From IMG/VR virus record IMGVR_UViG_3300045988_112752: DNA of 64,000 nt, one strand, 5' to 3'. Source of the DNA: a virus. Under the pieces are notes generated by a model. The model had not been told where the DNA came from. It made no database searches and saw nothing but the letters and a program-made list of their open reading frames with translations. This document shows, in pieces, positions 1,428-59,904 of this stretch. Each line of letters starts with the position of its first letter. Position 1 is the first letter of the stretch. Position numbers and translations under genes: made by a program.

Positions 1428-2128
1428 TTAAAATAGTGAGAGTTGCGCCTGCTCCAACTTTATGCGCTCGCAAGCCTTCTCGTAATACTCCTTGTTGAAC
1501 TCGAAGCCGATAAAGTTACGCTTCTCGCGGATGGCGGCAATAGCGGTGGTGCCGCTACCCATGAACGGGTCGAGAACAATATCTCCTTGCAGACTTGAGT
1601 TGACGATATGCTTTTCAATGAACGACAGAGGTTTTATTGTAGGGTGTCCCCAAGCTTTTTTGTCGGCAGAATTAAGAGGTGTAATGAAATACGTTCCTTT
1701 TGTTGAAACATCTCCGTATATTTGCACTCCCTTTTCTCTGAAGAACAGACAATACTCGGTATCAGTAATGTATTTGTTGTTACATGCAGGAATAGGATTT
1801 GTCTTATGCCATGTAAGCAAATTCCAGTTACATCCCTTTCCTCGCACGAAATAGTCTAAGTAAATGGGTATTTGCTTTTGACTACACCACAAGTATATAT
1901 TTATTCTCTTCATTACCCTACAACACTCGTCGAGAACTTTAAGGTCGAAGCCACTTTTTATTTCTTCGAGTTCTTTTACGTATCGTTTGTCGTCTTGTGT
2001 GTAAATTCCCCACCCATATTATCTAACAGATAGGGAGGGTCGGTCACTATTAACGAGACGCTTCCGCCCGGAATCCTTTTCATTCCGTCGAGGCAGTCTT
2101 CATTATATATTTTATCCAGTTCTATCAT
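1428..2128 (-). pseudogene. N6/N4 (beta-class) DNA methyltransferase interrupted by a frameshift
   Basis: Own translation from the ATG at 2128: MIELDKIYNEDCLDGMKRIPGGSVSLIVTDPPYLLDNMGG..., stop at 1978-1976. The other frame continues IYTQDDKRYVKELEE...CRVMKRINIY into track ORF 1428-1913, which ends DPFMGSGTTAIAAIREKRNFIGFEFNKEYY. DPPY and FxGSGT motifs are present. The frames join if the C4 run at 2008-2011 had one more base. Confidence 0.75.
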
Positions 2129-2273
2129 AATTGTGTTGTTTACGATTCCTCTCCAAAGTCTATTTTAAGCTGCTGAAACCTCTCGGCATACCATTGTCTG
2201 TATGACTTGCCCGAAATCCACCAGTCGTAGATGTTCTCCGCTATTTCGTTTTCTTGCCCCCCCCGTCAAGCGG

Positions 2274-3419
2274 TCAGAGGAGAGGCGACCTGAAAACCCG
2301 CGTTCGGCAAGTTTCCATATTCCTCGGTTCTGTCTCCCAGTTGCTGTTTGTCCGCATCCACTGCTTGCAGATGCGGAACGTCGGCATTGCTGCTCCTCGT
2401 ATTCTTGAGATTTTCCCCCCCCCAGTCGAATTGTTTGTAGAATCGAGACCTGTCCAATGTTCGGGGGCGGGATGCTTGATGTAGCCGCCTGCATCCTGAG
2501 CAATCCTCTGACGTTTCAGAGAGGCATCCAGTCTTTGCGGATGTTCCACCAGATATATTCTTTTTTTGAATACCTCCCCGTTTCGGATGGCCTTGATAGC
2601 CTTAATCCATCCTCGCTTGACATGTGGATAACGCTCGTTTTCAAGCATTTTTTGCTTGTGCGAACTCATAGGGCAACCTATGCAGCCTATGCGGTGCCAG
2701 CCTTCGTCGTAGAGTGAGCAATGCGGAACTTTCACAACATCATTAAGAAATTCCCATACATCCTGCTCCGTCCAGTAGATGATGGGCGATATTAGCAAAC
2801 TCTCTTTGCCGTGGATGCAGCCCAGCGTCTGTTCCTCGTCGGCATTGGTGATATTCACTCCGTCCGCCTTCGACTTCCGCTTCATGCGTTTAGCCTTCTG
2901 CTCCTGTCGGTATTCTTCCAGTCCGTCGAGGTCGCCGCTAAACTTTCGGTTGTTTATCTCCACCTCGTTGCGTTTGGCTCGGCGCGAACTCTCTGCCTTG
3001 CGTATGCCGATAAGCGTAACCTTGCCAGCACCTGCCGTTTCCTTATATTCGGCACAACACCAACGTATACGCATCGTTGGCAATATCTGTTTCTCGATGG
3101 CGTGCTGGAAGATTGATTTGCCGGGCTTTATCAGTTCCACTTCGGGATAGTTCTTCTTCACGAAGCGTATCACTTCTGGAGGATCAACACTCGTAAGGTT
3201 CATGTGACCCTTGAACTTCACTCCTGCCAACTGCGTCATGTGGTAAAGAGTCTGCGAGTCCTTGCCACCGCTAAATGCCAAGTAATAACCCTGCTCGGCA
3301 TCATAGTTGAGCGCAATCTTTTCCGCCTTTTGCAACAGCTCCACCGAGTGAAGCATTTTTTTGCGCAATCGTGCCGAAGCGCGGTCTAATGCTTCGGCAA
3401 GCGTAATGTCTATATTCAT
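2274..3419 (-). CDS. PAPS reductase / PP-loop ATP pyrophosphatase family protein; 3' end unclear
   Basis: ORF track 381 aa. Has YLAFSGGKDSQ (SGGxDS PP-loop) and a CIGCP cysteine motif. The last ~60 aa look non-protein-like and the region 2140-2500 switches frame at two homopolymer tracts (see findings). Confidence 0.75.
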   Translation of the reverse strand: MNIDITLAEALDRASARLRKKMLHSVELLQKAEKIALNYDAEQGYYLAFSGGKDSQTLYHMTQLAGVKFKGHMNLTSVDPPEVIRFVKKNYPEVELIKPGKSIFQHAIEKQILPTMRIRWCCAEYKETAGAGKVTLIGIRKAESSRRAKRNEVEINNRKFSGDLDGLEEYRQEQKAKRMKRKSKADGVNITNADEEQTLGCIHGKESLLISPIIYWTEQDVWEFLNDVVKVPHCSLYDEGWHRIGCIGCPMSSHKQKMLENERYPHVKRGWIKAIKAIRNGEVFKKRIYLVEHPQRLDASLKRQRIAQDAGGYIKHPAPEHWTGLDSTNNSTGGGKISRIRGAAMPTFRICKQWMRTNSNWETEPRNMETCRTRVFRSPLL

Positions 3420-3439
3420 GTCTTTATAAATTGATTAAG

Positions 3440-4204
3440 CTAACCATTGGATTCTTCACTCTTCGTTCTTCCCTCTTCACTTTCTGTCTCCATATACTCG
3501 AAGTAGTCCGGTTCTTCCGGCTTCTCACCACTCAGCAACTCCTCATCCTCAATCTCCTGAAGGTCTTTTGTGGTAAGACCATACTTGCGGGCCATGCGCT
3601 GCTTCTCCTCGTCGGTGTAGTTGATGCGGTCGCGCTTGACGATGCTCACGTCCTGCGTGATGGCAATGCGACTCATATCCGGCATCTCGTCCGTAGCGTC
3701 GCGCTCCTCGTCGAAATCCTTGTAGATTTTGCCCAGTGCCTCCATGCCCTTAGCCACGGCACGGTCATTGTTCTGCTGCTTGCCCGTGCGGATAAGCCAT
3801 TCTGCCGAACCGAGAAACATAGCCTTGTGGCGCGGACTCTCATCCGTCTGGAAGAAACGGATAAGATGGTTGCACACCAGCACGTCGTTGTTTAGCTCCG
3901 TAACGGTGCGCGGACAGATGTTGCCCTCGTCGTCAAGCGTAATTTTCAGCGCGATCACCATTGCCTGCGCATCCTTGTTGCCTTGCGCAGCCTGATTGAA
4001 GAATAACTCATAGTCGCGTCGGGCGATATTGCGGCACACGGTGCGCGGATCAATGTCCTTGTTCTGCACCCACCTCTTGTAAAATTCAGAGCACACCTGC
4101 ATACGGTAGCGTTGCTCCAGTTTAGGGAACGCCGTCTCAATGGATGTGCCGTAGCTCAACCACTTGTCGATACGGGCGAGCGTGTTTTGTGTAAGTCCTG
4201 ACAT
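3440..4204 (-). CDS. Hypothetical protein with acidic C-terminus; first gene of the packaging operon, candidate small terminase by position only
   Basis: ORF track 254 aa; same strand and tight spacing with the PAPS-reductase-like gene, MTase and terL. No motif recognised. Confidence 0.5.
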   Translation of the reverse strand: MSGLTQNTLARIDKWLSYGTSIETAFPKLEQRYRMQVCSEFYKRWVQNKDIDPRTVCRNIARRDYELFFNQAAQGNKDAQAMVIALKITLDDEGNICPRTVTELNNDVLVCNHLIRFFQTDESPRHKAMFLGSAEWLIRTGKQQNNDRAVAKGMEALGKIYKDFDEERDATDEMPDMSRIAITQDVSIVKRDRINYTDEEKQRMARKYGLTTKDLQEIEDEELLSGEKPEEPDYFEYMETESEEGRTKSEESNG

Positions 4205-28966: not shown

Positions 28967-30148
28967 ATGAAGAACGTAAAGATTTTTGCAAAGACCATCG
29001 AGGCGGAAGCTATGAAACAGATAGAAAACTTAGCAACGAGCGAGGCTTACTGCGACTGCAAGATACGCATTATGCCTGACTGTCATGCGGGTAAGGGATG
29101 CACAATAGGTACGGTAATTCAGACTGCCGGCAAGGTTGTACCTAATACCGTAGGCGTGGATATAGGCTGTGGTATGTTGGTATTCAAGTTCGCTGAGAAG
29201 GATATAAACCTTTCGCTTCTCGACCGAATCATCAATGAGTCGGTGCCGAGCGGATTTGACGTTCACGAAAAGTCCAAGCTAAAAGATTGTAGTTCGCTTC
29301 CGCTTACGTCACATCTTTTGCTCGATTTGCACAAAAGGACACAAGGTTGCTTCGATCTCGACTATATCGGACGCTCGCTTGGCACCCTCGGTGGCGGCAA
29401 TCACTTCATCGAGCTGGACGAGGACGAGCAGGGCTGTAAGTATCTTGTGATACATTCGGGCAGTCGCAATCTCGGAGTTAAGGTGTGCAACTTTTTCCAA
29501 CACTTAGCCAAAAAGAATGTGAATCGATACGAGGAGCGCAAGCGCATCATCGAAGACTTAAAGAAGTATGGCTTAGAGAGGGAGATTAACAATATGTTGC
29601 GTCGTTTTGACACCGTGCCTCCCGGTCTCGCCTATCTTGAGGGAGAAGACCTCAATGCCTACAATTTCGCTGCGAACGTCTGTCAGTATTTTGCCGACGA
29701 CAACAGATGGAATATAGCAATGCCTATAATCCATGGGCTTCAATTATCGGTTGTGGATTTCTTTACCACCAGGCATAACTATTTCGACATACACTCAGGC
29801 ATCATCCGAAAAGGAGCCGTGAGTGCCGAAAATGGCGAACAGCTTATCATCCCACTTAATATGCGCGATGGTTCGTTGATATGTCGCGGCAAGGGCAACG
29901 ACGACTGGCTTCAGTCGGCTCCGCACGGTGCAGGTAGACTAATGTCGCGCTCGGCGGCCAAGAAGCAGCTCAGCATGAAGGAATACCGACAGCAGATGCA
30001 CGACATTTACTCCACATCGGTATGCGAGTCAACAATCGACGAGTCGCCAATGGCGTACAAGCCCGCCGAAGAGATAGAATCGCTTATAGGCGACACTGTG
30101 GACGTGGTTAGGAGAATCAAACCGATATACAACTTCAAAGCGAAATAA
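28967..30148 (+). CDS. rtcB: RtcB-family 3'-phosphate/5'-OH RNA ligase
   Basis: ORF track 393 aa. MPDCHAGKGCTIGTV, GVDIGCGM, GTLGGGNHFIELD, HSGSRNLG and APHGAGR match the conserved RtcB metal/GMP-His blocks in order. Confidence 0.85.
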   Translation: MKNVKIFAKTIEAEAMKQIENLATSEAYCDCKIRIMPDCHAGKGCTIGTVIQTAGKVVPNTVGVDIGCGMLVFKFAEKDINLSLLDRIINESVPSGFDVHEKSKLKDCSSLPLTSHLLLDLHKRTQGCFDLDYIGRSLGTLGGGNHFIELDEDEQGCKYLVIHSGSRNLGVKVCNFFQHLAKKNVNRYEERKRIIEDLKKYGLEREINNMLRRFDTVPPGLAYLEGEDLNAYNFAANVCQYFADDNRWNIAMPIIHGLQLSVVDFFTTRHNYFDIHSGIIRKGAVSAENGEQLIIPLNMRDGSLICRGKGNDDWLQSAPHGAGRLMSRSAAKKQLSMKEYRQQMHDIYSTSVCESTIDESPMAYKPAEEIESLIGDTVDVVRRIKPIYNFKAK

Positions 30149-31695: not shown

Positions 31696-32268
31696 ATGAA
31701 AGCAAAAAACAAGGTATTGTTTGACAGATACAACCTTTACTTTAGAGGTGTTTGGAAGAAACCCCACAACTATCCCTCGCTGTTAGATATGGTAGAGCGT
31801 CGTATAGGATGGAGGGTTGACGTACTTCGTTGTTGTAATAACTGGGAAGATATTGTTTCTACTGACCGTAAAGTGCTTTCCAACTTTTGTAATCCGAAGG
31901 TGTTCCACTTTCCGAAAAAGTGTTGTGTGTCTCCTAAAGTTTTCGACCCGAGGTATTCGATGAAAAGTGAATACCATATAGTAAGGAAGAAAAACAATCG
32001 GTATAAGGTTGTTCGGAACAAACCTAAAAGACGTTCTATTGGGAGAACCTTGGTGGTAGATACCAAGAGGGGTTATGTCCGTAATATTGGCGATAAGGTG
32101 TGGTATCATCCCGATTATATGGATTTCGGTTGTTATACCTGCGCTGATTACGGAACATGCTTTAATAATGGTCGCCATGACAAGAGTTTTTGTGCGGTGG
32201 CTGCAAAGTGCGGAATCGGTCGCTGCAACACATGGCAGGAAGTAAGAGAAAACAATGATCAACATTAA
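31696..32268 (+). CDS. Hypothetical Cys-rich basic protein
   Basis: ORF track 190 aa. Confidence 0.55.
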   Translation: MKAKNKVLFDRYNLYFRGVWKKPHNYPSLLDMVERRIGWRVDVLRCCNNWEDIVSTDRKVLSNFCNPKVFHFPKKCCVSPKVFDPRYSMKSEYHIVRKKNNRYKVVRNKPKRRSIGRTLVVDTKRGYVRNIGDKVWYHPDYMDFGCYTCADYGTCFNNGRHDKSFCAVAAKCGIGRCNTWQEVRENNDQH

Positions 32269-32388
32269 GATTTCGGTGCATCCAGTTAGCCATCGGCTCG
32301 AATGGCGAGGATGGGGGGTAACTTCTCACCTGCCCTACGAGCCACCGACTACAAATGCCCTCACTGTATAATGATAGAATATGATTAA
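32255..32388 (+). pseudogene. C5-MTase TRD-like mini-ORF a, split by a frameshift at a G6 tract
   Basis: Own translation: MINIKISVHPVSHRLEWRGWG (frame 1) and GNFSPALRATDYKCPHCIMIEYD-stop (frame 2). One extra G in 32313-32318 joins them. Confidence 0.55.
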
Positions 32389-32515
32389 GCAACACCCATT
32401 CGATGATTTTCATCAGCGCATACATTGGAACGGCAACTCCATCGGAACCGTTATCCAACAATGGGGCAATCCTGCGCCGAGACACGGATGGCGAATAATG
32501 ATTGAATATGAATAA
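32381..32515 (+). CDS. C5-MTase TRD-like mini-ORF b (44 aa)
   Basis: Own translation: MIKQHPFDDFHQRIHWNGNSIGTVIQQWGNPAPRHGWRIMIEYE-stop. The ATG is embedded in tATGAtTAA of ORF a. Confidence 0.5.
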   Translation: MIKQHPFDDFHQRIHWNGNSIGTVIQQWGNPAPRHGWRIMIEYE

Positions 32516-32834
32516 CCCTCACACGCCCCGCTACAAGCGTGGCACCGTCACCAAGGACGGCAAGCTGTATGGCCGCTATCCCGACGGTTCGCTCTACCGC
32601 ATCTACTCCACCTCTGACCGACCCTTCCTTCAGATTGTGAACCGCAAGGGAGAGACGTTCCTTCGCATACGCCAAGCCACCGAGCAGGGCTATACCGACT
32701 GCCCTTGCCCTGGAGCCGCCGACCTCAGCTATCCCTCCTCGGCTCTAAGGCGCAGCCGAACGGTTGGGGGGGGTAAGATAGTGAACGCTCTGACCGCAGC
32801 AAGCGGAGGATTGTGTGTTTTTGTAGAATTATAA
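32508..32834 (+). CDS. C5-MTase TRD-like mini-ORF c (108 aa)
   Basis: Track ORF 32502 (TTG); ATG at 32508 lies inside tATGAaTAA. IRQATEQGYTDCPCPGAADLSYPSSALRRSRTVGGGKIVNALTAASGGLCVFVEL resembles the xATKxGY...RRGRV...TLT type of TRD. In-frame G8 tract at 32766-32773. Confidence 0.6.
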   Translation: MNNPHTPRYKRGTVTKDGKLYGRYPDGSLYRIYSTSDRPFLQIVNRKGETFLRIRQATEQGYTDCPCPGAADLSYPSSALRRSRTVGGGKIVNALTAASGGLCVFVEL

Positions 32835-32849
32835 AAGGAGAAATAAATT

Positions 32850-33152
32850 ATGAGTTACAATACAGAAAAGATAATCGTAAAGAACGAGGACACGGGAAAG
32901 GAAGAGGACGTAAAGTTGTTCTATTCTACCATTACTGATAATGTAGGTATCACTTGCGGCGAGCAGGAGGTTTTTCTTACTCAAGACCAGTTTAAGGCTT
33001 TGTCGTGTCTTATGTTTAGATGTTTTTACACAAGAGATATGCTGAACGAAGCGCGAATGGCTAATGATTGGGACGATCACCCTTACACCGTCTTTTCTTC
33101 TCACGATGAAACCACGTGGACCAAAGAGGTTGAAGAAGATAGATATGACTAA
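32850..33152 (+). CDS. Hypothetical protein d (100 aa) embedded in the TRD array
   Basis: ORF track. AAGGAG upstream. No clear MTase motif, but it ends ...EDRYD-stop with the same tATGAcTAA overlap into ORF e. Confidence 0.5.
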   Translation: MSYNTEKIIVKNEDTGKEEDVKLFYSTITDNVGITCGEQEVFLTQDQFKALSCLMFRCFYTRDMLNEARMANDWDDHPYTVFSSHDETTWTKEVEEDRYD

Positions 33153-33276
33153 TCACGACCTCTACCAATATCCTCGTGGTAACAACGACGGAGGTAGATT
33201 AGGCACTGACGTTTGCCCGACCGTGACAATTAACGCATGGCAGCAAAATGTATTTCTGATTGAAGAATATGAATAA
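33145..33276 (+). CDS. C5-MTase TRD-like mini-ORF e (43 aa)
   Basis: Own translation: MTNHDLYQYPRGNNDGGRLGTDVCPTVTINAWQQNVFLIEEYE-TAA. Same frame as the core ORF, which starts 4 codons after the stop. Confidence 0.55.
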   Translation: MTNHDLYQYPRGNNDGGRLGTDVCPTVTINAWQQNVFLIEEYE

Positions 33277-33288
33277 AGCAAAGACAAT

Positions 33289-34593
33289 ATGATTACAAAA
33301 CTCAACTTCACTGACCGCACCATCAAGAGCTACGCTATCCGCAAGCTCACACCCAAAGAGTGTTTCCGACTGATGGGCGTTCGCGACAACGTAATCGGCA
33401 CCATGCAGAGCAGCAATGCCCAGGCAGCCGAGCGACTGCCCGACTGGAAAGGCAAGGGCAAGCCGGAAGACATGGCAGTGTCTGCGTCGCAGCAGTACAA
33501 GCAGGCAGGCAACTCAATCGTGGTGGACGTGTTGGCCCACATCTATGAGCAGTTGTTCTATCCGAAGCCGAATTTGCGTAAATTCAGACAACTCTCACTC
33601 TTTACCGACACCGGCGACTATTTGCCCGACATGCCGAAGAACTTAGACGATTCTGCTGAGGAAAAGATATTCCTTACCACGTTCTCCGGCTACGACTCGC
33701 AGCTCATGGCAGCCGACGTGCTGAAGGAGTGGCATCCCAACTTCCGATGGACGTGCAAGGGATGGAGCGACATTGACAAATACGCCTGTCTGATGCACAA
33801 CCTCGTATTTCCGCAGTTTGCCGACTGCGCACTTGGTGACATCACCAAGATTGACTGGCACGCCGTGAAACGCTCGCTCTATGGACGCGAGGTTGACCTC
33901 TTCACCTATTCCTCGCCCTGTCAGGACATCTCGCAAGCCGGCAAGCAGATGGGGCTTCAGGAGGGCAGCGATACCCGAAGCGCCCTCCTTTGGCGAGTGG
34001 CAGATGCCGTGGAGGTGTTGCACCCCAAATATCTCTTGCAGGAGAACGTGGCGGCATTGGTTAGCCAGAAGTTCATGCCCGACTTCCAGAAGTGGCTCGA
34101 CAAGCTCTCCTCACTCGGATACGTCTCACGTTGGGCTCGCCTGAACGCCAAAAACTACGGTGTGCCGCAGAACCGCGACCGTGTGTTCTGCATCTCCATG
34201 CGCCAGGACGTAGCCTTCGACTATCAGTTTCCCGAACCCTTCGAGCTGCGCACCCGACTGGAGGACGTGTTGGAAGAAGAGGTAGCCGACCGCTATTTCC
34301 TCAAGGACGATGCCGTGAGCAAGTTCCTCAAAGCAAACGACTCCGACAACGCCCTCTTCATGCAGTTCGACCTGCCGTCGACACACGAGGCAGCGATGTT
34401 TCTAAAGACGTGGCTCACGCTACGCATGAACGCTCTCAACGGATGGGAGAGGGAGCTGGACGAACTGAACTATTGTATAGAGAACGAGCGAGACGTATTG
34501 AACAGCGAGTTCGGATGCTTCAGTAAATATCGTGAATTTCCTTGCGAAGGTTTCGAGGAACTGTTCAATGAGAATATGGAGAGGAAGAAATGA
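33289..34593 (+). CDS. C5-cytosine DNA methyltransferase core with permuted motif order (IX-X, linker, I-VIII, extra C-terminal region)
   Basis: ORF track 434 aa. IRKLTPKECFRLMGV (IX), QQYKQAGNSIVVDVL (X), then TTFSGYDSQ (I), SSPCQDIS (IV), LLQENV (VI), QNRDRVF (VIII). Confidence 0.8.
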   Translation: MITKLNFTDRTIKSYAIRKLTPKECFRLMGVRDNVIGTMQSSNAQAAERLPDWKGKGKPEDMAVSASQQYKQAGNSIVVDVLAHIYEQLFYPKPNLRKFRQLSLFTDTGDYLPDMPKNLDDSAEEKIFLTTFSGYDSQLMAADVLKEWHPNFRWTCKGWSDIDKYACLMHNLVFPQFADCALGDITKIDWHAVKRSLYGREVDLFTYSSPCQDISQAGKQMGLQEGSDTRSALLWRVADAVEVLHPKYLLQENVAALVSQKFMPDFQKWLDKLSSLGYVSRWARLNAKNYGVPQNRDRVFCISMRQDVAFDYQFPEPFELRTRLEDVLEEEVADRYFLKDDAVSKFLKANDSDNALFMQFDLPSTHEAAMFLKTWLTLRMNALNGWERELDELNYCIENERDVLNSEFGCFSKYREFPCEGFEELFNENMERKK

Positions 34594-34736
34594 CACTCCC
34601 TTTCAACACCGAAACCGACGGCACATCACGCACCATCAAAGCCAACTACTTCAAGAAGGGCGCATACGATGTACTTGATGTCTCAGCCCAAGGAGCAAAC
34701 TTCAAAGCCACTGGCGCAATCGTGATATATGAATAA
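34590..34736 (+). CDS. C5-MTase TRD-like mini-ORF g (48 aa)
   Basis: Own translation: MTLPFNTETDGTSRTIKANYFKKGAYDVLDVSAQGANFKATGAIVIYE-stop. ATGA overlap with the core stop. Confidence 0.55.
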   Translation: MTLPFNTETDGTSRTIKANYFKKGAYDVLDVSAQGANFKATGAIVIYE

Positions 34737-34881
34737 CAACCCTCGCCCCATCATCCTCGGCTCTTACAGCCCCTCGCAGAACGGCATCGTCGTTTCGCCC
34801 CACGGTATAGCCTTGTGCATAGCCGGGGGAGGTAAGGGTCACGATGTGGATAAACCAAAAATACTGATAACGTATGATTGA
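34729..34881 (+). CDS. C5-MTase TRD-like mini-ORF h (50 aa), HhaI-type TRD
   Basis: Own translation: MNNNPRPIILGSYSPSQNGIVVSPHGIALCIAGGGKGHDVDKPKILITYD-stop. Compare M.HhaI QGERIYSTRGIAITLSAYGGG. Confidence 0.6.
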   Translation: MNNNPRPIILGSYSPSQNGIVVSPHGIALCIAGGGKGHDVDKPKILITYD

Positions 34882-35056
34882 CCGTTCCGTCCTCGTCCAC
34901 TACCGCACCGAAGAGGCGAAAGTCTACCGCCGCGAGCATGGTGACCGTGGAGGGTGCAAATACCAAGACAAGCTGCATCGTCCCAGTCCGTGGCCGTGGA
35001 GCAATTCGATAACAACAGTAACCAAAGACAACCTCCTATGCGTAACATTTATCTGA
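34874..35056 (+). CDS. C5-MTase TRD-like mini-ORF i (60 aa)
   Basis: ORF track: ...RTEEAKVYRREHGDRGG...SNSITTVTKDNLLCVTFI. It lacks the YE ending; that strand (NIYLIHE) sits in the next frame. Confidence 0.5.
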   Translation: MIDRSVLVHYRTEEAKVYRREHGDRGGCKYQDKLHRPSPWPWSNSITTVTKDNLLCVTFI

Positions 35057-35214
35057 TACACGAAGCTCGAACTGAACACGCAAAGGCTGTGCGTCGCAGA
35101 ACCGGCACTAACGATTTTCGCGATAAGGAATGGCATCTGCGGTCAGGACACATGATGCAATGTATAGGAACGTTTCTCACTACAGACAATCTGATAGCAA
35201 TATGCTACGAATAA
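35038..35214 (+). CDS. C5-MTase TRD-like mini-ORF j (58 aa)
   Basis: In frame with track ORF 34954: MRNIYLIHEARTEHAKAVRRRTGTNDFRDKEWHLRSGHMMQCIGTFLTTDNLIAICYE-stop. Confidence 0.5.
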   Translation: MRNIYLIHEARTEHAKAVRRRTGTNDFRDKEWHLRSGHMMQCIGTFLTTDNLIAICYE

Positions 35215-35354
35215 GAATAGCAGCCTTCCGTGGCCGCCCTTTGAATGGTGACGATTGCCCCAACATTCAGCGCATGGAGATAAACGCGCAGGGTACAACC
35301 AACACGCTTACGTCAGTAGGCAAGGATAATATGGCATATATAGAGTATGAATAA
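35202..35354 (+). CDS. C5-MTase TRD-like mini-ORF k (50 aa)
   Basis: In frame with track ORF 35130: MLRIRIAAFRGRPLNGDDCPNIQRMEINAQGTTNTLTSVGKDNMAYIEYE-stop (RGR...QRxE...TNTLTSVxKDN type). Confidence 0.6.
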   Translation: MLRIRIAAFRGRPLNGDDCPNIQRMEINAQGTTNTLTSVGKDNMAYIEYE

Positions 35355-35498
35355 TCAAATTCCATTCGTGCAACGCCTCTCTCGCCTCTGCCCACGTCGG
35401 GGGGGTACTCCACCGCCCTGTCCGCACGCTACGACGGATGGGCAGGACTCTACGACGAGCACGGACAGCACACCATTGTATTGATAGAATATGACTGA
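35347..35498 (+). pseudogene. C5-MTase TRD-like mini-ORF l, split by a frameshift at a G7 tract
   Basis: Own translation: MNNQIPFVQRLSRLCPRRGG (frame 1) and YSTALSARYDGWAGLYDEHGQHTIVLIEYD-stop (frame 2). One extra G in 35399-35405 joins them. Confidence 0.55.
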
Positions 35499-35670
35499 CA
35501 AGTATTACATTGGCTGGGTACGCAGCGGCAAGGACGGCAAGGGCCTCGTAAAGAGCCGACCGCGCAAGTAGATAGCCAATGCCGTGACAACCTCACCGCC
35601 CGGCAGCTTTGCCGACCCTCGCGACGGACTTGGCAACACCACACCGCATATAGTGTATAAATATGAGTAA
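35491..35670 (+). pseudogene. C5-MTase TRD-like mini-ORF m with an in-frame TAG
   Basis: Own translation: MTDKYYIGWVRSGKDGKGLVKSRPRK-TAG(35569)-IANAVTTSPPGSFADPRDGLGNTTPHIVYKYE-stop. Confidence 0.5.
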
Positions 35671-59486: not shown

Positions 59487-59904
59487 ATATATAGTGTTTT
59501 GTGTTGTTTATAACGCAAAGTTAAGATATTTTGCTTTTATGCGCAGGACATTGTGCGTATTTCGTCGTTTTTGTGTAAGTTTGGTCTATTGATTAAGTGT
59601 TTTGGTATAGGTTGATGTTGTTTTAACGTACTAAACATGAGCGTTTTAATCTGTTTGTTCCCCAAAATAATCGTTGTAATTTGGGTTTTCTCGAAAGTGG
59701 CAGCACGTAGGTTGCTACCCATAAAACCATGTAAATTTTTAAGAATTAGAGCAAAGGTGTTGTTTTGAACGGCTCAACCTCACAAGCGACCAACCACCGC
59801 ACTGAGACCCCTTGGCTTAGTGTCGGTTAGTAAAATCTTATTATATATGCTAACGAGTATAAAGGGGGGGGCTGTGGTGGTCTGTGGTGGTCGTGAATGT
59901 GCCT

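What the first reader, a model, noticed from the sequence alone, without database searches (positions are those of the whole stretch)
32255..35670. About a dozen stand-alone C5-methyltransferase TRD mini-genes flanking a single catalytic core
Apart from one 434-aa ORF, this 3.4-kb stretch is tiled on the plus strand by 12 short ORFs of 26-108 aa. By my own translation, 11 of them look like isolated target-recognition domains (TRDs) of C5-cytosine DNA methyltransferases and nothing else. The TRD-like segments are: a ...GNFSPALRATDYKCPHCIMIEYD; b ...NSIGTVIQQWGNPAPRHGWRIMIEYE; c ...IRQATEQGYTDC...SALRRSRTVGGGKIVNALTAASGGLCVFVEL; e ...GTDVCPTVTINAWQQNVFLIEEYE; g ...TSRTIKANYFKKGAYDV...GAIVIYE; h ...SQNGIVVSPHGIALCIAGGGKG...KILITYD (compare M.HhaI QGERIYSTRGIAITLSAYGGG); i RTEEAKVYRREHG...SNSITTVTKDNLL; j RTEHAKAVRRRTG...CIGTFLTTDNLIAICYE; k IAAFRGRPLNG...QRMEINAQGTTNTLTSVGKDNMAYIEYE; l ...STALSARYDGWAGLYDEHGQHTIVLIEYD; m ...IANAVTTSPPG...TPHIVYKYE. 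None carries catalytic motifs I-VIII or IX-X. Most end with a hydrophobic strand plus Y-E/D followed at once by a stop codon. In most cases the next ATG is embedded in the same 9-mer (tATGAaTAA, tATGAtTAA, tATGAcTGA), the layout expected for termination-reinitiation coupling. In ordinary enzymes that strand runs directly into motif IX. In the known multispecific Bacillus-phage enzymes (SPR/phi3T/H2 type), several 40-50-aa TRDs are fused in one chain. Here they are separate cistrons on both sides of one core. Possible readings are: (i) a multispecific methyltransferase whose TRDs are supplied in trans to a permuted core; (ii) a library of silent specificity cassettes for recombination; (iii) decaying remnants. 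Cassettes a, l, m and the i/j pair do show frameshifts or an internal stop, which favours at least some decay.
Basis: partly seen in the sequence, partly recalled or inferred. Interest (0 to 1): 0.9.

Follow-up and report, generated by a model that had tools for sequence, protein, structure and literature searches.

The report
Phage methyltransferase with detachable specificity cassettes
A gut phage carries one cytosine-methylase core that lacks its DNA-reading part, flanked by about a dozen tiny, separately translated genes that each encode only such a reading module, several with slippery G-runs that switch them on or off; if they work together as the evidence suggests, this is a new plug-in way for a virus to protect its DNA from many host restriction enzymes.

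Summary
Window 33289-34593 encodes a circularly permuted C5-cytosine methyltransferase (motif order IX-X-I-VIII) with no target-recognition domain (TRD). Eleven mini-ORFs of 43-108 aa tile the flanks, most ending in hydrophobic-E-Y-E/D plus a stop, with the next ATG inside tATGAnTAA.

The layout recurs in all 84 related phage loci examined. About 20 cassette families occur in mosaic combinations, and none is ever fused to the core.

Cassettes c, e, g, h and k match TRDs inside ordinary or multi-TRD phage methyltransferases, always between motifs VIII and IX. For a, b, i, j, l and m the TRD label rests on motif resemblance, tail and position only.

The cassettes are under purifying selection (dN/dS 0.04-0.47; about 1 or more in most shifted-frame controls).

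The apparent decay in a and l is length variation in poly-G tracts. Genomes with zero substitutions over 4-5 kb differ only in these homopolymer lengths.

Best reading (confidence 0.6): a multispecific phage methyltransferase whose TRDs are separate, translationally coupled, individually phase-variable subunits acting in trans on one core. Assembly and activity are inferred, not shown. I found no published precedent.

The parts
32255..32388 (+). Cassette a (family 5), phase OFF in this window. ATG at 32255, poly-G tract of 6 at 32313-32318, TRD-like end ...GNFSPALRATDYKCPHCIMIEYD in another frame.
   Evidence: In relatives G4/G7/G10 are in frame with MxxIKISVHPVSHRLEWRGWGG-NFSPAL..., while G6/G8 are out of frame. 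dN/dS 0.35. No significant TRD homology was found.
32381..32515 (+). Cassette b (family 10), intact, 44 aa, ends RIMIEYE*. Its ATG is embedded in a's tATGAtTAA.
   Evidence: dN/dS 0.10. The TRD label is unproven and rests on tail and position only.
32508..32834 (+). Cassette c, 108 aa, ends CVFVEL*. G8 tract at 32766-32773 is in frame (ON).
   Evidence: With f21 it hits Streptococcus phage Javan6/33 C5-MTase genes at E = 7e-5. It matches phrog_8411 positions 109-160, directly before the motif IX positions 166-197 that the core hits. In relatives the tract is G8/G11 in frame and G6/7/9 out of frame.
32850..33152 (+). ORF d, 100 aa, not TRD-like, function unknown. AAGGAG lies 8 nt upstream of its ATG. 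It ends RYD* with e's ATG embedded.
   Evidence: no Pfam or PHROG hit. Conserved in L001.
33145..33276 (+). Cassette e (family 2), 43 aa, ends FLIEEYE*.
   Evidence: The family HMM scores 27.1 bits on Dulem virus 40 beta subunit aa 163-196 and 25.3 bits on Javan6 MTase aa 269-297. The best of 3600 shuffled decoys scores 6.7. dN/dS 0.32.
33289..34593 (+). Catalytic core: circularly permuted C5-cytosine methyltransferase with motif order IX, X, I, IV, VI, VIII, followed by a roughly 75-aa tail (predicted helical only in a failed, low-confidence AF2 model). It has no TRD.
   Evidence: PF00145 E = 4e-49. Two-piece alignment to Dulem virus 39 and Javan179 enzymes. More than 7900 relatives, all of about 434-462 aa among those listed. 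Never fused to a cassette in 85 loci.
34590..34736 (+). Cassette g, 48 aa, ends AIVIYE*. ATGA overlap with the core's stop.
   Evidence: The family HMM scores 16.2 bits on the first TRD of Dulem virus 40 beta (aa 2-39); best decoy 4.2.
34729..34881 (+). Cassette h, 50 aa, ends KILITYD*.
   Evidence: The profile hits P0277 at E = 3.9e-9 against 1.84e9 proteins. P0277 is a 162-aa protein with an h-like segment, then motif IX, then motif X. All 129 close relatives are 33-87 aa.
34874..35056 (+). Cassette i, 60 aa, intact, ends CVTFI*.
   Evidence: Same ORF in L001. Weak paralogy to j (17 and 16 bits against best decoys of 13-14). The TRD label is pattern-level only.
35038..35214 (+). Cassette j (family 8), 58 aa, ends AICYE* with TAC (no embedded ATG).
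   Evidence: dN/dS 0.15.
35202..35354 (+). Cassette k (family 4), 50 aa, ends AYIEYE*.
   Evidence: tblastn hits 11 annotated C5-MTase genes among 13 matches, best E = 5e-4. The HMM scores 59.5, 57.5 and 40.4 bits on Javan179 beta, Dulem39 and Dulem40 beta, always between motifs VIII and IX. Dulem39 aa 344-401 hits this spot in the window at E = 5e-6.
35347..35498 (+). Cassette l (family 1), phase OFF. G7 tract at 35399-35405. The TRD-like end ...STALSARYDGWAGLYDEHGQHTIVLIEYD is in another frame.
   Evidence: In relatives G5/G8 are in frame and G6/7/9 out of frame. dN/dS 0.25.
35491..35670 (+). Cassette m (family 3), interrupted by an in-frame TAG at 35569-35571. Ends HIVYKYE*.
   Evidence: Relatives read K-[Q/R/E/L]-IANAVTT at that codon. 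TAG is used as a genuine stop by 66 cassettes in this clade. No suppressor tRNA in the window.

Best explanation
This is a multispecific phage C5-cytosine DNA methyltransferase built from separate parts.

One catalytic core (motifs IX-X fused ahead of I-VIII, no TRD) is co-expressed with a set of 43-108-aa TRD mini-proteins. In this window 8 are in phase: b, c, e, g, h, i, j and k.

The cassettes are translated as a chain by termination-reinitiation at tATGAnTAA overlaps. Each is proposed to dock non-covalently onto the core through its conserved hydrophobic-E-Y-E/D (or VEL) C-terminal strand. That strand corresponds to the strand that precedes motif IX in single-chain enzymes. Each docked TRD would give the core a different target sequence, so that progeny DNA is protected from many host restriction systems.

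Poly-G (and some poly-C) tracts inside individual cassettes slip during replication and turn single specificities on or off. The phage population would therefore carry a mix of methylation repertoires.

Shown here: the anatomy, its conservation, purifying selection, TRD homology of five cassettes, and tract hypermutability.

Inferred: translation coupling, assembly in trans, one motif per cassette, and the anti-restriction or bet-hedging role.
For: - Core is a permuted PF00145 enzyme without a TRD.
- All 85 loci have 3-12 such cassettes flanking the core and no fusion.
- All 129 relatives of h among 5.8e9 proteins are 33-87 aa.
- TRD homology: k; h to P0277, a TRD-IX-X protein, at E = 3.9e-9; c; e, g, and the non-window families f6, f19 and f21, the last matching the classical H2 and rho11s multispecific enzymes. 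All matches fall between motifs VIII and IX. 31 of 33 tblastn hits of a concatenated cassette query lie in annotated C5-MTase genes.
- dN/dS is 0.04-0.47 for nearly all families. The shifted-frame control is about 0.8-2.2 for most families, with one at 0.46.
- Start-codon logic: the Tyr codon is TAT in 461 of 513 cases when an ORF follows in the ATG frame, but Tyr is kept as TAC when none follows (Fisher p = 4e-18). The ATG therefore behaves as a start and the Tyr as a protein feature.
- The H2 enzyme's TRD also ends ...PKIAVEY, and ...GEYPKY precedes its motif IX (output).
- The same family sits upstream of the core in some phages and downstream in others, so position relative to the core does not matter.
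- Poly-G runs are 11-fold enriched on the coding strand of the arrays. Their lengths fall in and out of frame. They are the only differences between genomes with 0 mismatches over 4-5.3 kb.
- Precedent: natural and engineered C5-MTases cut in the variable region complement in trans (PMC5944983).
Against: - No direct evidence of translation, binding or methylation.
- Structure prediction failed. The k+core chimera gave mean pLDDT 40.5. h alone gave pLDDT 62 with no structural match.
- Six window cassettes (a, b, i, j, l, m) have no statistically supported TRD homology.
- Known split enzymes keep the TRD covalently attached to either motif VIII or motif IX. A TRD free at both ends is untested.
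- Motif I of the core is atypical (FSGYDS rather than FxGxG). It is invariant across the 22 aligned core sequences, but activity is unproven.
- Homopolymer length differences could in part be assembly errors.
Confidence: 0.6

Rival explanations
1. The mini-proteins are made and selected, but do not act as specificity subunits of this core. They might instead regulate or inhibit the core, compete with one another, or target host methyltransferases or restriction enzymes.
For: Purifying selection and conservation show function but not which function. A TRD free at both ends has no biochemical precedent. Six cassettes lack demonstrable TRD homology.
Against: The core lacks any TRD, yet is itself highly conserved. 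Five cassettes are homologous to TRDs in the canonical position. In all 85 loci examined the cassettes flank the core, and the window holds only one catalytic core.
Confidence: 0.17
2. The stops are bypassed by serial +1 frameshifting or readthrough, giving one long multi-TRD polypeptide, as in the Bacillus-phage enzymes.
For: Each cassette is in the +1 frame of the previous one. Cassette e and the core share a frame, separated by TAA and four codons. Single-chain multi-TRD relatives exist, such as Dulem virus 39.
Against: All three stop codons are used (TAA 422, TGA 151, TAG 66), and I saw no shared slippery sequence at the junctions (not searched for systematically). The embedded ATG is conserved only where a cistron follows. 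Up to ten consecutive recoding events would be needed. Cassettes lie on both sides of the core.
Confidence: 0.06
3. The cassettes are a silent library that is moved by recombination into an expression site next to the core.
For: Mosaic presence and absence of families, and a 15-28-nt direct repeat at junctions that could mediate recombination.
Against: No fused expression site in 85 genomes. Every cassette has its own start and is under selection in place. In-cassette phase switches make sense only if the cassette is expressed in place. All cassettes are on one strand, and the window's array has no convincing inverted repeats.
Confidence: 0.05
4. These are decaying remnants of tandem multi-TRD methyltransferase genes, or the stops are sequencing errors.
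For: a, l and m are disrupted in this window. The permuted core looks like a fusion product of two genes.
Against: The same stops and starts recur in 85 independent assemblies and in more than 100 protein clusters. dN/dS is well below 1. Disruptions concentrate in homopolymer tracts and are absent elsewhere.
Confidence: 0.03

Closest known systems
Multispecific C5-MTases of Bacillus phages (M.SPRI, M.Phi3TI, M.Rho11sI, M.H2I)
   Same: A phage-borne enzyme with one catalytic framework and several TRD modules of about 40-60 aa. Family f21, present in relatives of this phage, matches the H2 and rho11s TRD at aa 323-353 (20-25 bits against a best decoy of 8.9). The TRD end ...PKIAVEY resembles the cassette tail.
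   Different: In those enzymes all TRDs sit in one polypeptide between motifs VIII and IX (review PMC12707154). Here each TRD is its own cistron, the core is permuted, and cassettes carry phase-variable tracts.
Multi-TRD and split alpha/beta phage enzymes (Dulem virus 39; Dulem virus 40; Streptococcus phages Javan179 and Javan6; M.AquI type)
   Same: These are the closest annotated relatives of the core (about 36-45% identity). Dulem virus 40 beta carries g-, f21-, k-, e- and f6-like modules in series before motifs IX-X. Some are naturally split in the variable region.
   Different: There are at most two chains, and every TRD stays covalently linked to motif VIII or motif IX. They have normal motif order and no stand-alone TRD genes.
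Natural circularly permuted C5-MTases (M.BssHII, M.Alw26I, M2.Eco31I, M.Esp3I, M2.BsaI)
   Same: Motifs IX-X precede I-VIII, and the permutation point lies in the variable region (PMC5944983).
   Different: Those enzymes keep their TRD in the chain (TRD-IX-X-I-VIII). This core begins 14 residues before motif IX and has none.
Type I R-M HsdS specificity subunits and SSR-driven phase-variable methyltransferases (phasevarions)
   Same: Functional analogy only: a separate specificity subunit, and homopolymer-tract ON/OFF switching of methylation specificity.
   Different: A different enzyme class (amino-methyltransferases), cellular rather than viral, and no sequence relationship. Here many alternative subunits would share one C5 core.

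Membership tests
C5-cytosine DNA methyltransferase (PF00145) | Catalytic motifs I, IV (PCQ), VI (ENV), VIII (QxRxR), IX and X | tested here: met
   PF00145 E = 4e-49. PCQDIS, ENV, QNRDRVF, RKLTPKECFRLMG and GNSIVV were read and aligned. Motif I is atypical (FSGYDS).
C5-cytosine DNA methyltransferase (PF00145) | TRD in the same chain between motifs VIII and IX | tested here: not met
   Homology to the reference enzymes ends at core aa 361, and the 73-aa tail has no counterpart in them. No fusion in 85 loci.
Multispecific phage C5-MTase (SPR/phi3T/rho11s/H2 type) | Several independent TRD modules serving one catalytic framework | tested here: inconclusive
   Several TRD-homologous modules are present. 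That they serve the core is inferred.
Multispecific phage C5-MTase (SPR/phi3T/rho11s/H2 type) | TRDs contiguous in a single polypeptide | tested here: not met
   Stops and restarts at every junction, conserved in 85 loci. h relatives are all 33-87 aa.
Multispecific phage C5-MTase (SPR/phi3T/rho11s/H2 type) | Several distinct 5mC target sequences methylated | not testable with these tools
   Needs a methylome or an expression assay.
Circularly permuted C5-MTase (M.BssHII type) | Motif order IX-X-I-VIII in one chain | tested here: met
   Two-piece alignment: aa 15-98 to IX-X, aa 99-361 to the N-terminus through VIII.
Circularly permuted C5-MTase (M.BssHII type) | TRD retained at the N-terminus of the permuted chain | tested here: not met
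   Only 14 residues precede motif IX.
Split alpha/beta C5-MTase (M.AquI type) | Two polypeptides cut in the variable region that reconstitute activity | tested here: inconclusive
   The cut lies in the variable region, as in Javan179 and Dulem40. Here, however, the TRD is free at both ends. Reconstitution was not tested.
SSR-mediated phase-variable gene (contingency locus) | Homopolymer tract inside the ORF whose length varies in and out of frame among near-identical genomes | tested here: met
   Genomes with 0 mismatches over 4-5.3 kb differ only in tract length.
SSR-mediated phase-variable gene (contingency locus) | Reversible high-frequency switching within one population, with a phenotypic change | not testable with these tools
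   Needs read-level data or experiments.
Shufflon or silent-cassette recombination system | Inverted or direct recombination sites with an expression locus | tested here: not met
   All cassettes are on one strand. In the window's array only weak inverted repeats were found. No fused expression site in any of the 85 loci. Neighbouring ORFs were not systematically scanned for a recombinase.

The most novel reading that the evidence does not exclude
C5-cytosine methyltransferases can work like Type I systems. One TRD-less catalytic core would accept any of a pool of about 20 interchangeable 45-60-aa specificity subunits. Each subunit is its own cistron and many are under independent homopolymer phase variation, so a single phage lineage could generate up to 2^n methylation repertoires. 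That would let it hedge between hosts with classical restriction systems and hosts with methyl-dependent ones.
Probability: 0.5. Interest if true: 0.9.

Novelty: new variant of a known kind. Interest (0 to 1): 0.8.

Why it matters
C5-MTases are textbook single-chain enzymes, with rare two-part exceptions, and their TRD acts in cis. A natural system in which a minimal TRD peptide acts in trans would have four consequences.

- It would define the smallest autonomous DNA-recognition module of this enzyme class.
- It would explain how abundant gut phages cope with the many restriction systems of their hosts.
- It would provide a documented case of contingency-locus phase variation in a virus's counter-defence genes; my searches of the held library found no reported case.
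- It would offer a ready-made toolkit of one core plus swappable 50-aa specificity peptides for programmable 5mC writing.

It is directly testable. Natural strains already form an ON/OFF matrix that methylome data could decode into cassette-to-motif assignments.

Tried and rejected
- blastn of the region against GenBank phages: no match.
- Pfam on seven mini-ORFs, and PHROGs on cassette peptides: nothing except c to phrog_8411.
- phmmer of h against PDB sequences and tblastn of h against phages: nothing.
- AF2 of a k+core chimera with a shallow alignment: mean pLDDT 40.5, unusable.
- AF2 of h alone: pLDDT 62, a beta-hairpin plus a C-terminal strand, with no meaningful Foldseek match in the PDB.
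- Two long hits of the h profile (P0282, P0296) are low-complexity repeat proteins and were discarded.
- Stop-codon recoding was rejected because all three stops end cassettes and the window has no suppressor tRNA.
- Family 12 (dN/dS about 1) was dropped as a likely off-frame artefact of ORF d.
- L096, a 41%-identical hit in a Clostridia MAG, is an ordinary alpha/beta split enzyme and not this architecture.
- i/j/k paralogy is only marginal against tail-preserving decoys.
- Seven literature searches found no description of stand-alone TRD cistrons or phase-variable phage TRDs. Trautner et al. 1996 was not available to read.

Full report
**1. What is in the sequence**

The plus strand of window 32255-35670 holds one 434-aa ORF (33289-34593) and a chain of short ORFs on both sides of it.

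The long ORF is a C5-cytosine DNA methyltransferase (PF00145, E = 4e-49). Its motifs are circularly permuted. Residues 15-98 align to motifs IX-X at the C-terminus of normal-order phage enzymes. Residues 99-361 align to their N-terminus through motif VIII and the first part of the variable region. The last 73 residues have no counterpart in the reference enzymes (the failed AF2 model predicts helices there, at low confidence). The core therefore has no target-recognition domain (TRD).

The catalytic signatures PCQDIS, ENV, QNRDRVF, RKLTPKECFRLMG and GNSIVV are present. Motif I is unusual (FSGYDS) but invariant across the 22 aligned core sequences. The window holds only one such catalytic core.

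Ten of the fifteen plus-strand stop-to-stop segments in the whole 64 kb that end in [YF][ED] lie in these 3.4 kb (P = 4e-10).

Three corrections apply:
- ORF d (32850-33152) is not TRD-like.
- i and j are two intact overlapping ORFs.
- a and l are frameshifted exactly at poly-G tracts, and m has an in-frame TAG.

**2. Conservation**

The core has thousands of relatives at more than 83% identity on 90-105-kb gut metagenome contigs. PHROG hits in the window identify a tailed phage: head maturation protease, tail protein, RtcB ligase and a primase-like protein. A few MAG bins name Prevotella, which is weak host evidence.

I collected 84 related loci with cores 68-97% identical to the window's. 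Every one has 3-12 mini-ORFs of the same type around the core.

The mini-ORFs fall into about 20 recurrent families. Their order is largely conserved but presence and absence are mosaic. Several families (6, 9, 11, 15) lie upstream of the core in some phages and downstream in others.

In no locus is a cassette fused to the core. All 129 relatives of cassette h among 5.8 billion proteins are 33-87 aa and have no Pfam domain. The stops are therefore real and ancient, not errors.

**3. Are the cassettes TRDs?**

*Cassette k.* It hits 13 places in GenBank phages, 11 of them inside annotated C5-MTase genes (best E = 5e-4). In Dulem virus 39 and Streptococcus phage Javan179 the matching segment lies between motif VIII and motif IX.

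*Concatenated query.* A query made of 18 cassette families gave 33 hits, 31 of them in annotated C5-MTase genes. These include Javan6/33 (families f21 and c in series, E = 7e-5) and the classical multispecific enzymes of Bacillus phages H2 and rho11s.

*Family HMMs against eight reference enzymes with 3600 shuffled decoys.* Best decoys scored 4-11 bits.

| Family | Target | Bits |
|---|---|---|
| k | Javan179 beta / Dulem39 / Dulem40 beta | 59.5 / 57.5 / 40.4 |
| h | P0277 | 46.1 |
| e | Dulem40 beta / Javan6 | 27.1 / 25.3 |
| f21 | H2 / Javan6 / rho11s | 24.6 / 22.4 / 20.5 |
| f6 | Dulem40 beta | 19.6 |
| g and f19 | Dulem40 beta | 16.2 |

Every hit lies in the variable region.

*Cassette h.* Its profile, searched against 1.84 billion representative proteins, found only small proteins plus P0277 (E = 3.9e-9). 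P0277 is a 162-aa protein made of an h-like segment, a linker, motif IX and motif X.

*Cassette c.* It matches phrog_8411 just upstream of the positions that the core's motif IX matches.

*Overall.* c, e, g, h and k are TRD homologues. Dulem virus 40's beta subunit carries g-, f21-, k-, e- and f6-like modules in one chain, whereas this phage has them as separate genes. For a, b, i, j, l and m I found no significant homology. Their TRD label rests on motif resemblance, the shared tail and their position.

**4. Are the cassettes functional genes?**

Pairwise dN/dS within families is 0.04-0.47 for nearly all families. The same alignments read in the +1 frame give about 0.8-2.2 for most families, with one at 0.46.

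The junction is TAT-GAN-stop with an embedded ATG in 527 of 639 cassettes, and all three stop codons are used. This excludes stop-codon recoding.

Codon choice separates two constraints:
- When an ORF of at least 25 aa follows in the ATG frame, the Tyr codon is TAT (461 of 513).
- When none follows, as for the cassette just before the core, Tyr is kept but encoded TAC (Fisher p = 4e-18).

The ATG therefore behaves as a start codon, and the hydrophobic-E-Y-E/D tail is selected as protein. The same kind of tail ends a TRD inside the single-chain H2 enzyme (...PKIAVEY) and precedes its motif IX (...GEYPKYRIRKLTP; output). It is thus an ancestral feature of TRD modules.

**5. The "decay" is phase variation**

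Plus-strand G runs of at least 6 are 11 times denser in the arrays than in the flanks (0.69 against 0.06 per kb). C runs are not enriched. Three of the window's four G runs lie in cassettes a, c and l.

Tract lengths across relatives fall in and out of frame:

| Cassette | In frame | Out of frame |
|---|---|---|
| a | G4, G7, G10 | G6, G8 (about half of 46 loci) |
| l | G5, G8 | G6, G7, G9 |
| c | G8, G11 (12 loci) | G6, G7, G9 (11 loci) |

f6, k, e and h behave the same way.

The decisive observation comes from assemblies with zero substitutions over 4-5.3 kb: L001/L002/L004/L010, L044/L045 and L058/L059. They differ only in homopolymer lengths in cassettes c, f6, a and others, plus a poly-C tract in family 7. 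These tracts mutate much faster than the rest of the sequence, and the downstream reading frames stay under selection. That is the signature of contingency loci.

In this window a (G6) and l (G7) are OFF and c (G8) is ON. m's TAG looks like a simple nonsense change.

**6. Mechanism proposed**

Shown: a conserved TRD-less permuted core, conserved stand-alone TRD-type cistrons with overlapping stop-start junctions, selection on them, and hypermutable tracts.

Inferred:
- The cassettes are translated by termination-reinitiation.
- Each docks on the core through its C-terminal strand, which is homologous to the strand preceding motif IX.
- Each holoenzyme methylates a different motif.
- Slippage toggles individual specificities.

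Precedent comes from natural (M.AquI) and engineered C5-MTases cut in the variable region, which complement in trans (PMC5944983). A 2025 review still describes phage multispecificity only as several TRDs in a single polypeptide (PMC12707154).

The core's anatomy suggests an origin from a Dulem40-like alpha/beta enzyme. Motifs IX-X run into an N-terminus-like QLSLF segment and then motif I. This fits a beta-alpha fusion, with the TRDs split off one by one.

**7. Rivals**

- Another role for the mini-proteins cannot be excluded (0.17).
- Serial recoding into one chain is unlikely, given three stop codons, no shared slippery sequence that I could see, and a selected ATG (0.06).
- A silent cassette library lacks any expression site and conflicts with in-place selection and switching (0.05).
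- Decay or sequencing error is largely refuted (0.03).

**8. Limits**

- Structure prediction was uninformative.
- No read-level data were available to show tract heteroplasmy within a population.
- No experiment bears on assembly or activity.
- Seven full-text searches found no prior description. The library does not hold most subscription papers or REBASE notes.

**9. Verdict**

The decay reading is replaced by phase variation. This is a new architectural variant of the multispecific phage C5-methyltransferase, of high interest to restriction-modification and phage biologists, and directly testable.

Noticed in passing
window 2274-3419 (-), 2257-2264, 2415-2423: A PAPS-reductase-like ORF (phrog_424, E = 2e-35) has a 9-nt homopolymer (poly-G on its coding strand, ...STGGGKIS...) near its 3' end, and an 8-nt one just past its stop. 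It may be another phase-variable gene.
   Followed up: partly
window 1428-1913 (-): A 161-aa ORF matches only the C-terminal half of amino (N6A/N4C) DNA methyltransferase families (phrog_67, E = 4e-38). It is either a second, possibly split or truncated, methyltransferase or a fragment.
   Followed up: partly
window 28967-30148 (+): An RtcB-type tRNA ligase lies about 3 kb upstream of the array. A similar neighbourhood of methyltransferases plus a tRNA ligase was noted for 'Quimbyviridae' gut phages (PMC8008677).
   Followed up: no
window 59864-59871: The only other G8 run in the window lies in a stretch with just small ORFs.
   Followed up: no
window 33269-33292: The ATG embedded in e's tATGAaTAA opens a 7-codon ORF whose TGA overlaps the core's ATG (ATGA), so the coupling chain could reach the core. 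Only 4 loci share this. Most have TAC and a 9-13-nt spacer instead.
   Followed up: yes
window 34372-34590 (core aa 362-434) and relatives L024, L039, L043, L057: The middle of the core's C-terminal tail occurs in at least three unrelated sequence variants among relatives, while both of its ends are conserved. Its function is unknown; it could be a docking platform.
   Followed up: partly
window 33289-34593, aa 132-137: Motif I reads FSGYDS, with Asp in place of the second Gly of FxGxG, and is invariant across the 22 aligned core sequences. AdoMet binding should be checked.
   Followed up: partly
L087 1-1169 (Logan SRR12177861): A more distant relative has TRD-like mini-ORFs next to P0277, a separate TRD-IX-X protein that ends at QLSLFG*, exactly at the permutation junction of the window's core. 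In that lineage the core is apparently split further.
   Followed up: partly
L001 about 7627 (family 7 cassette) against L002/L004/L010: A poly-C tract (C8 against C6, coding Pro-Pro) also varies between otherwise identical genomes, so switching is not limited to poly-G.
   Followed up: partly
L086 (Javan179) 1067-2345; L088 (Dulem virus 40) 1679-3619: In both records the C5-MTase is encoded by two adjacent CDSs with different product names: an alpha part (motifs I-VIII) and a beta part (TRDs plus IX-X). The Javan179 alpha part ends ...AVIELIE*, resembling the cassette tails.
   Followed up: yes
window 32368-32395, 32495-32522, 33262-33276, 35340-35354, 35478-35505: The junctions share a 15-28-nt direct repeat (ATAATGATWGAATATGAWTAA). 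It could promote cassette loss, gain or exchange by recombination and so explain the mosaic repertoires.
   Followed up: partly
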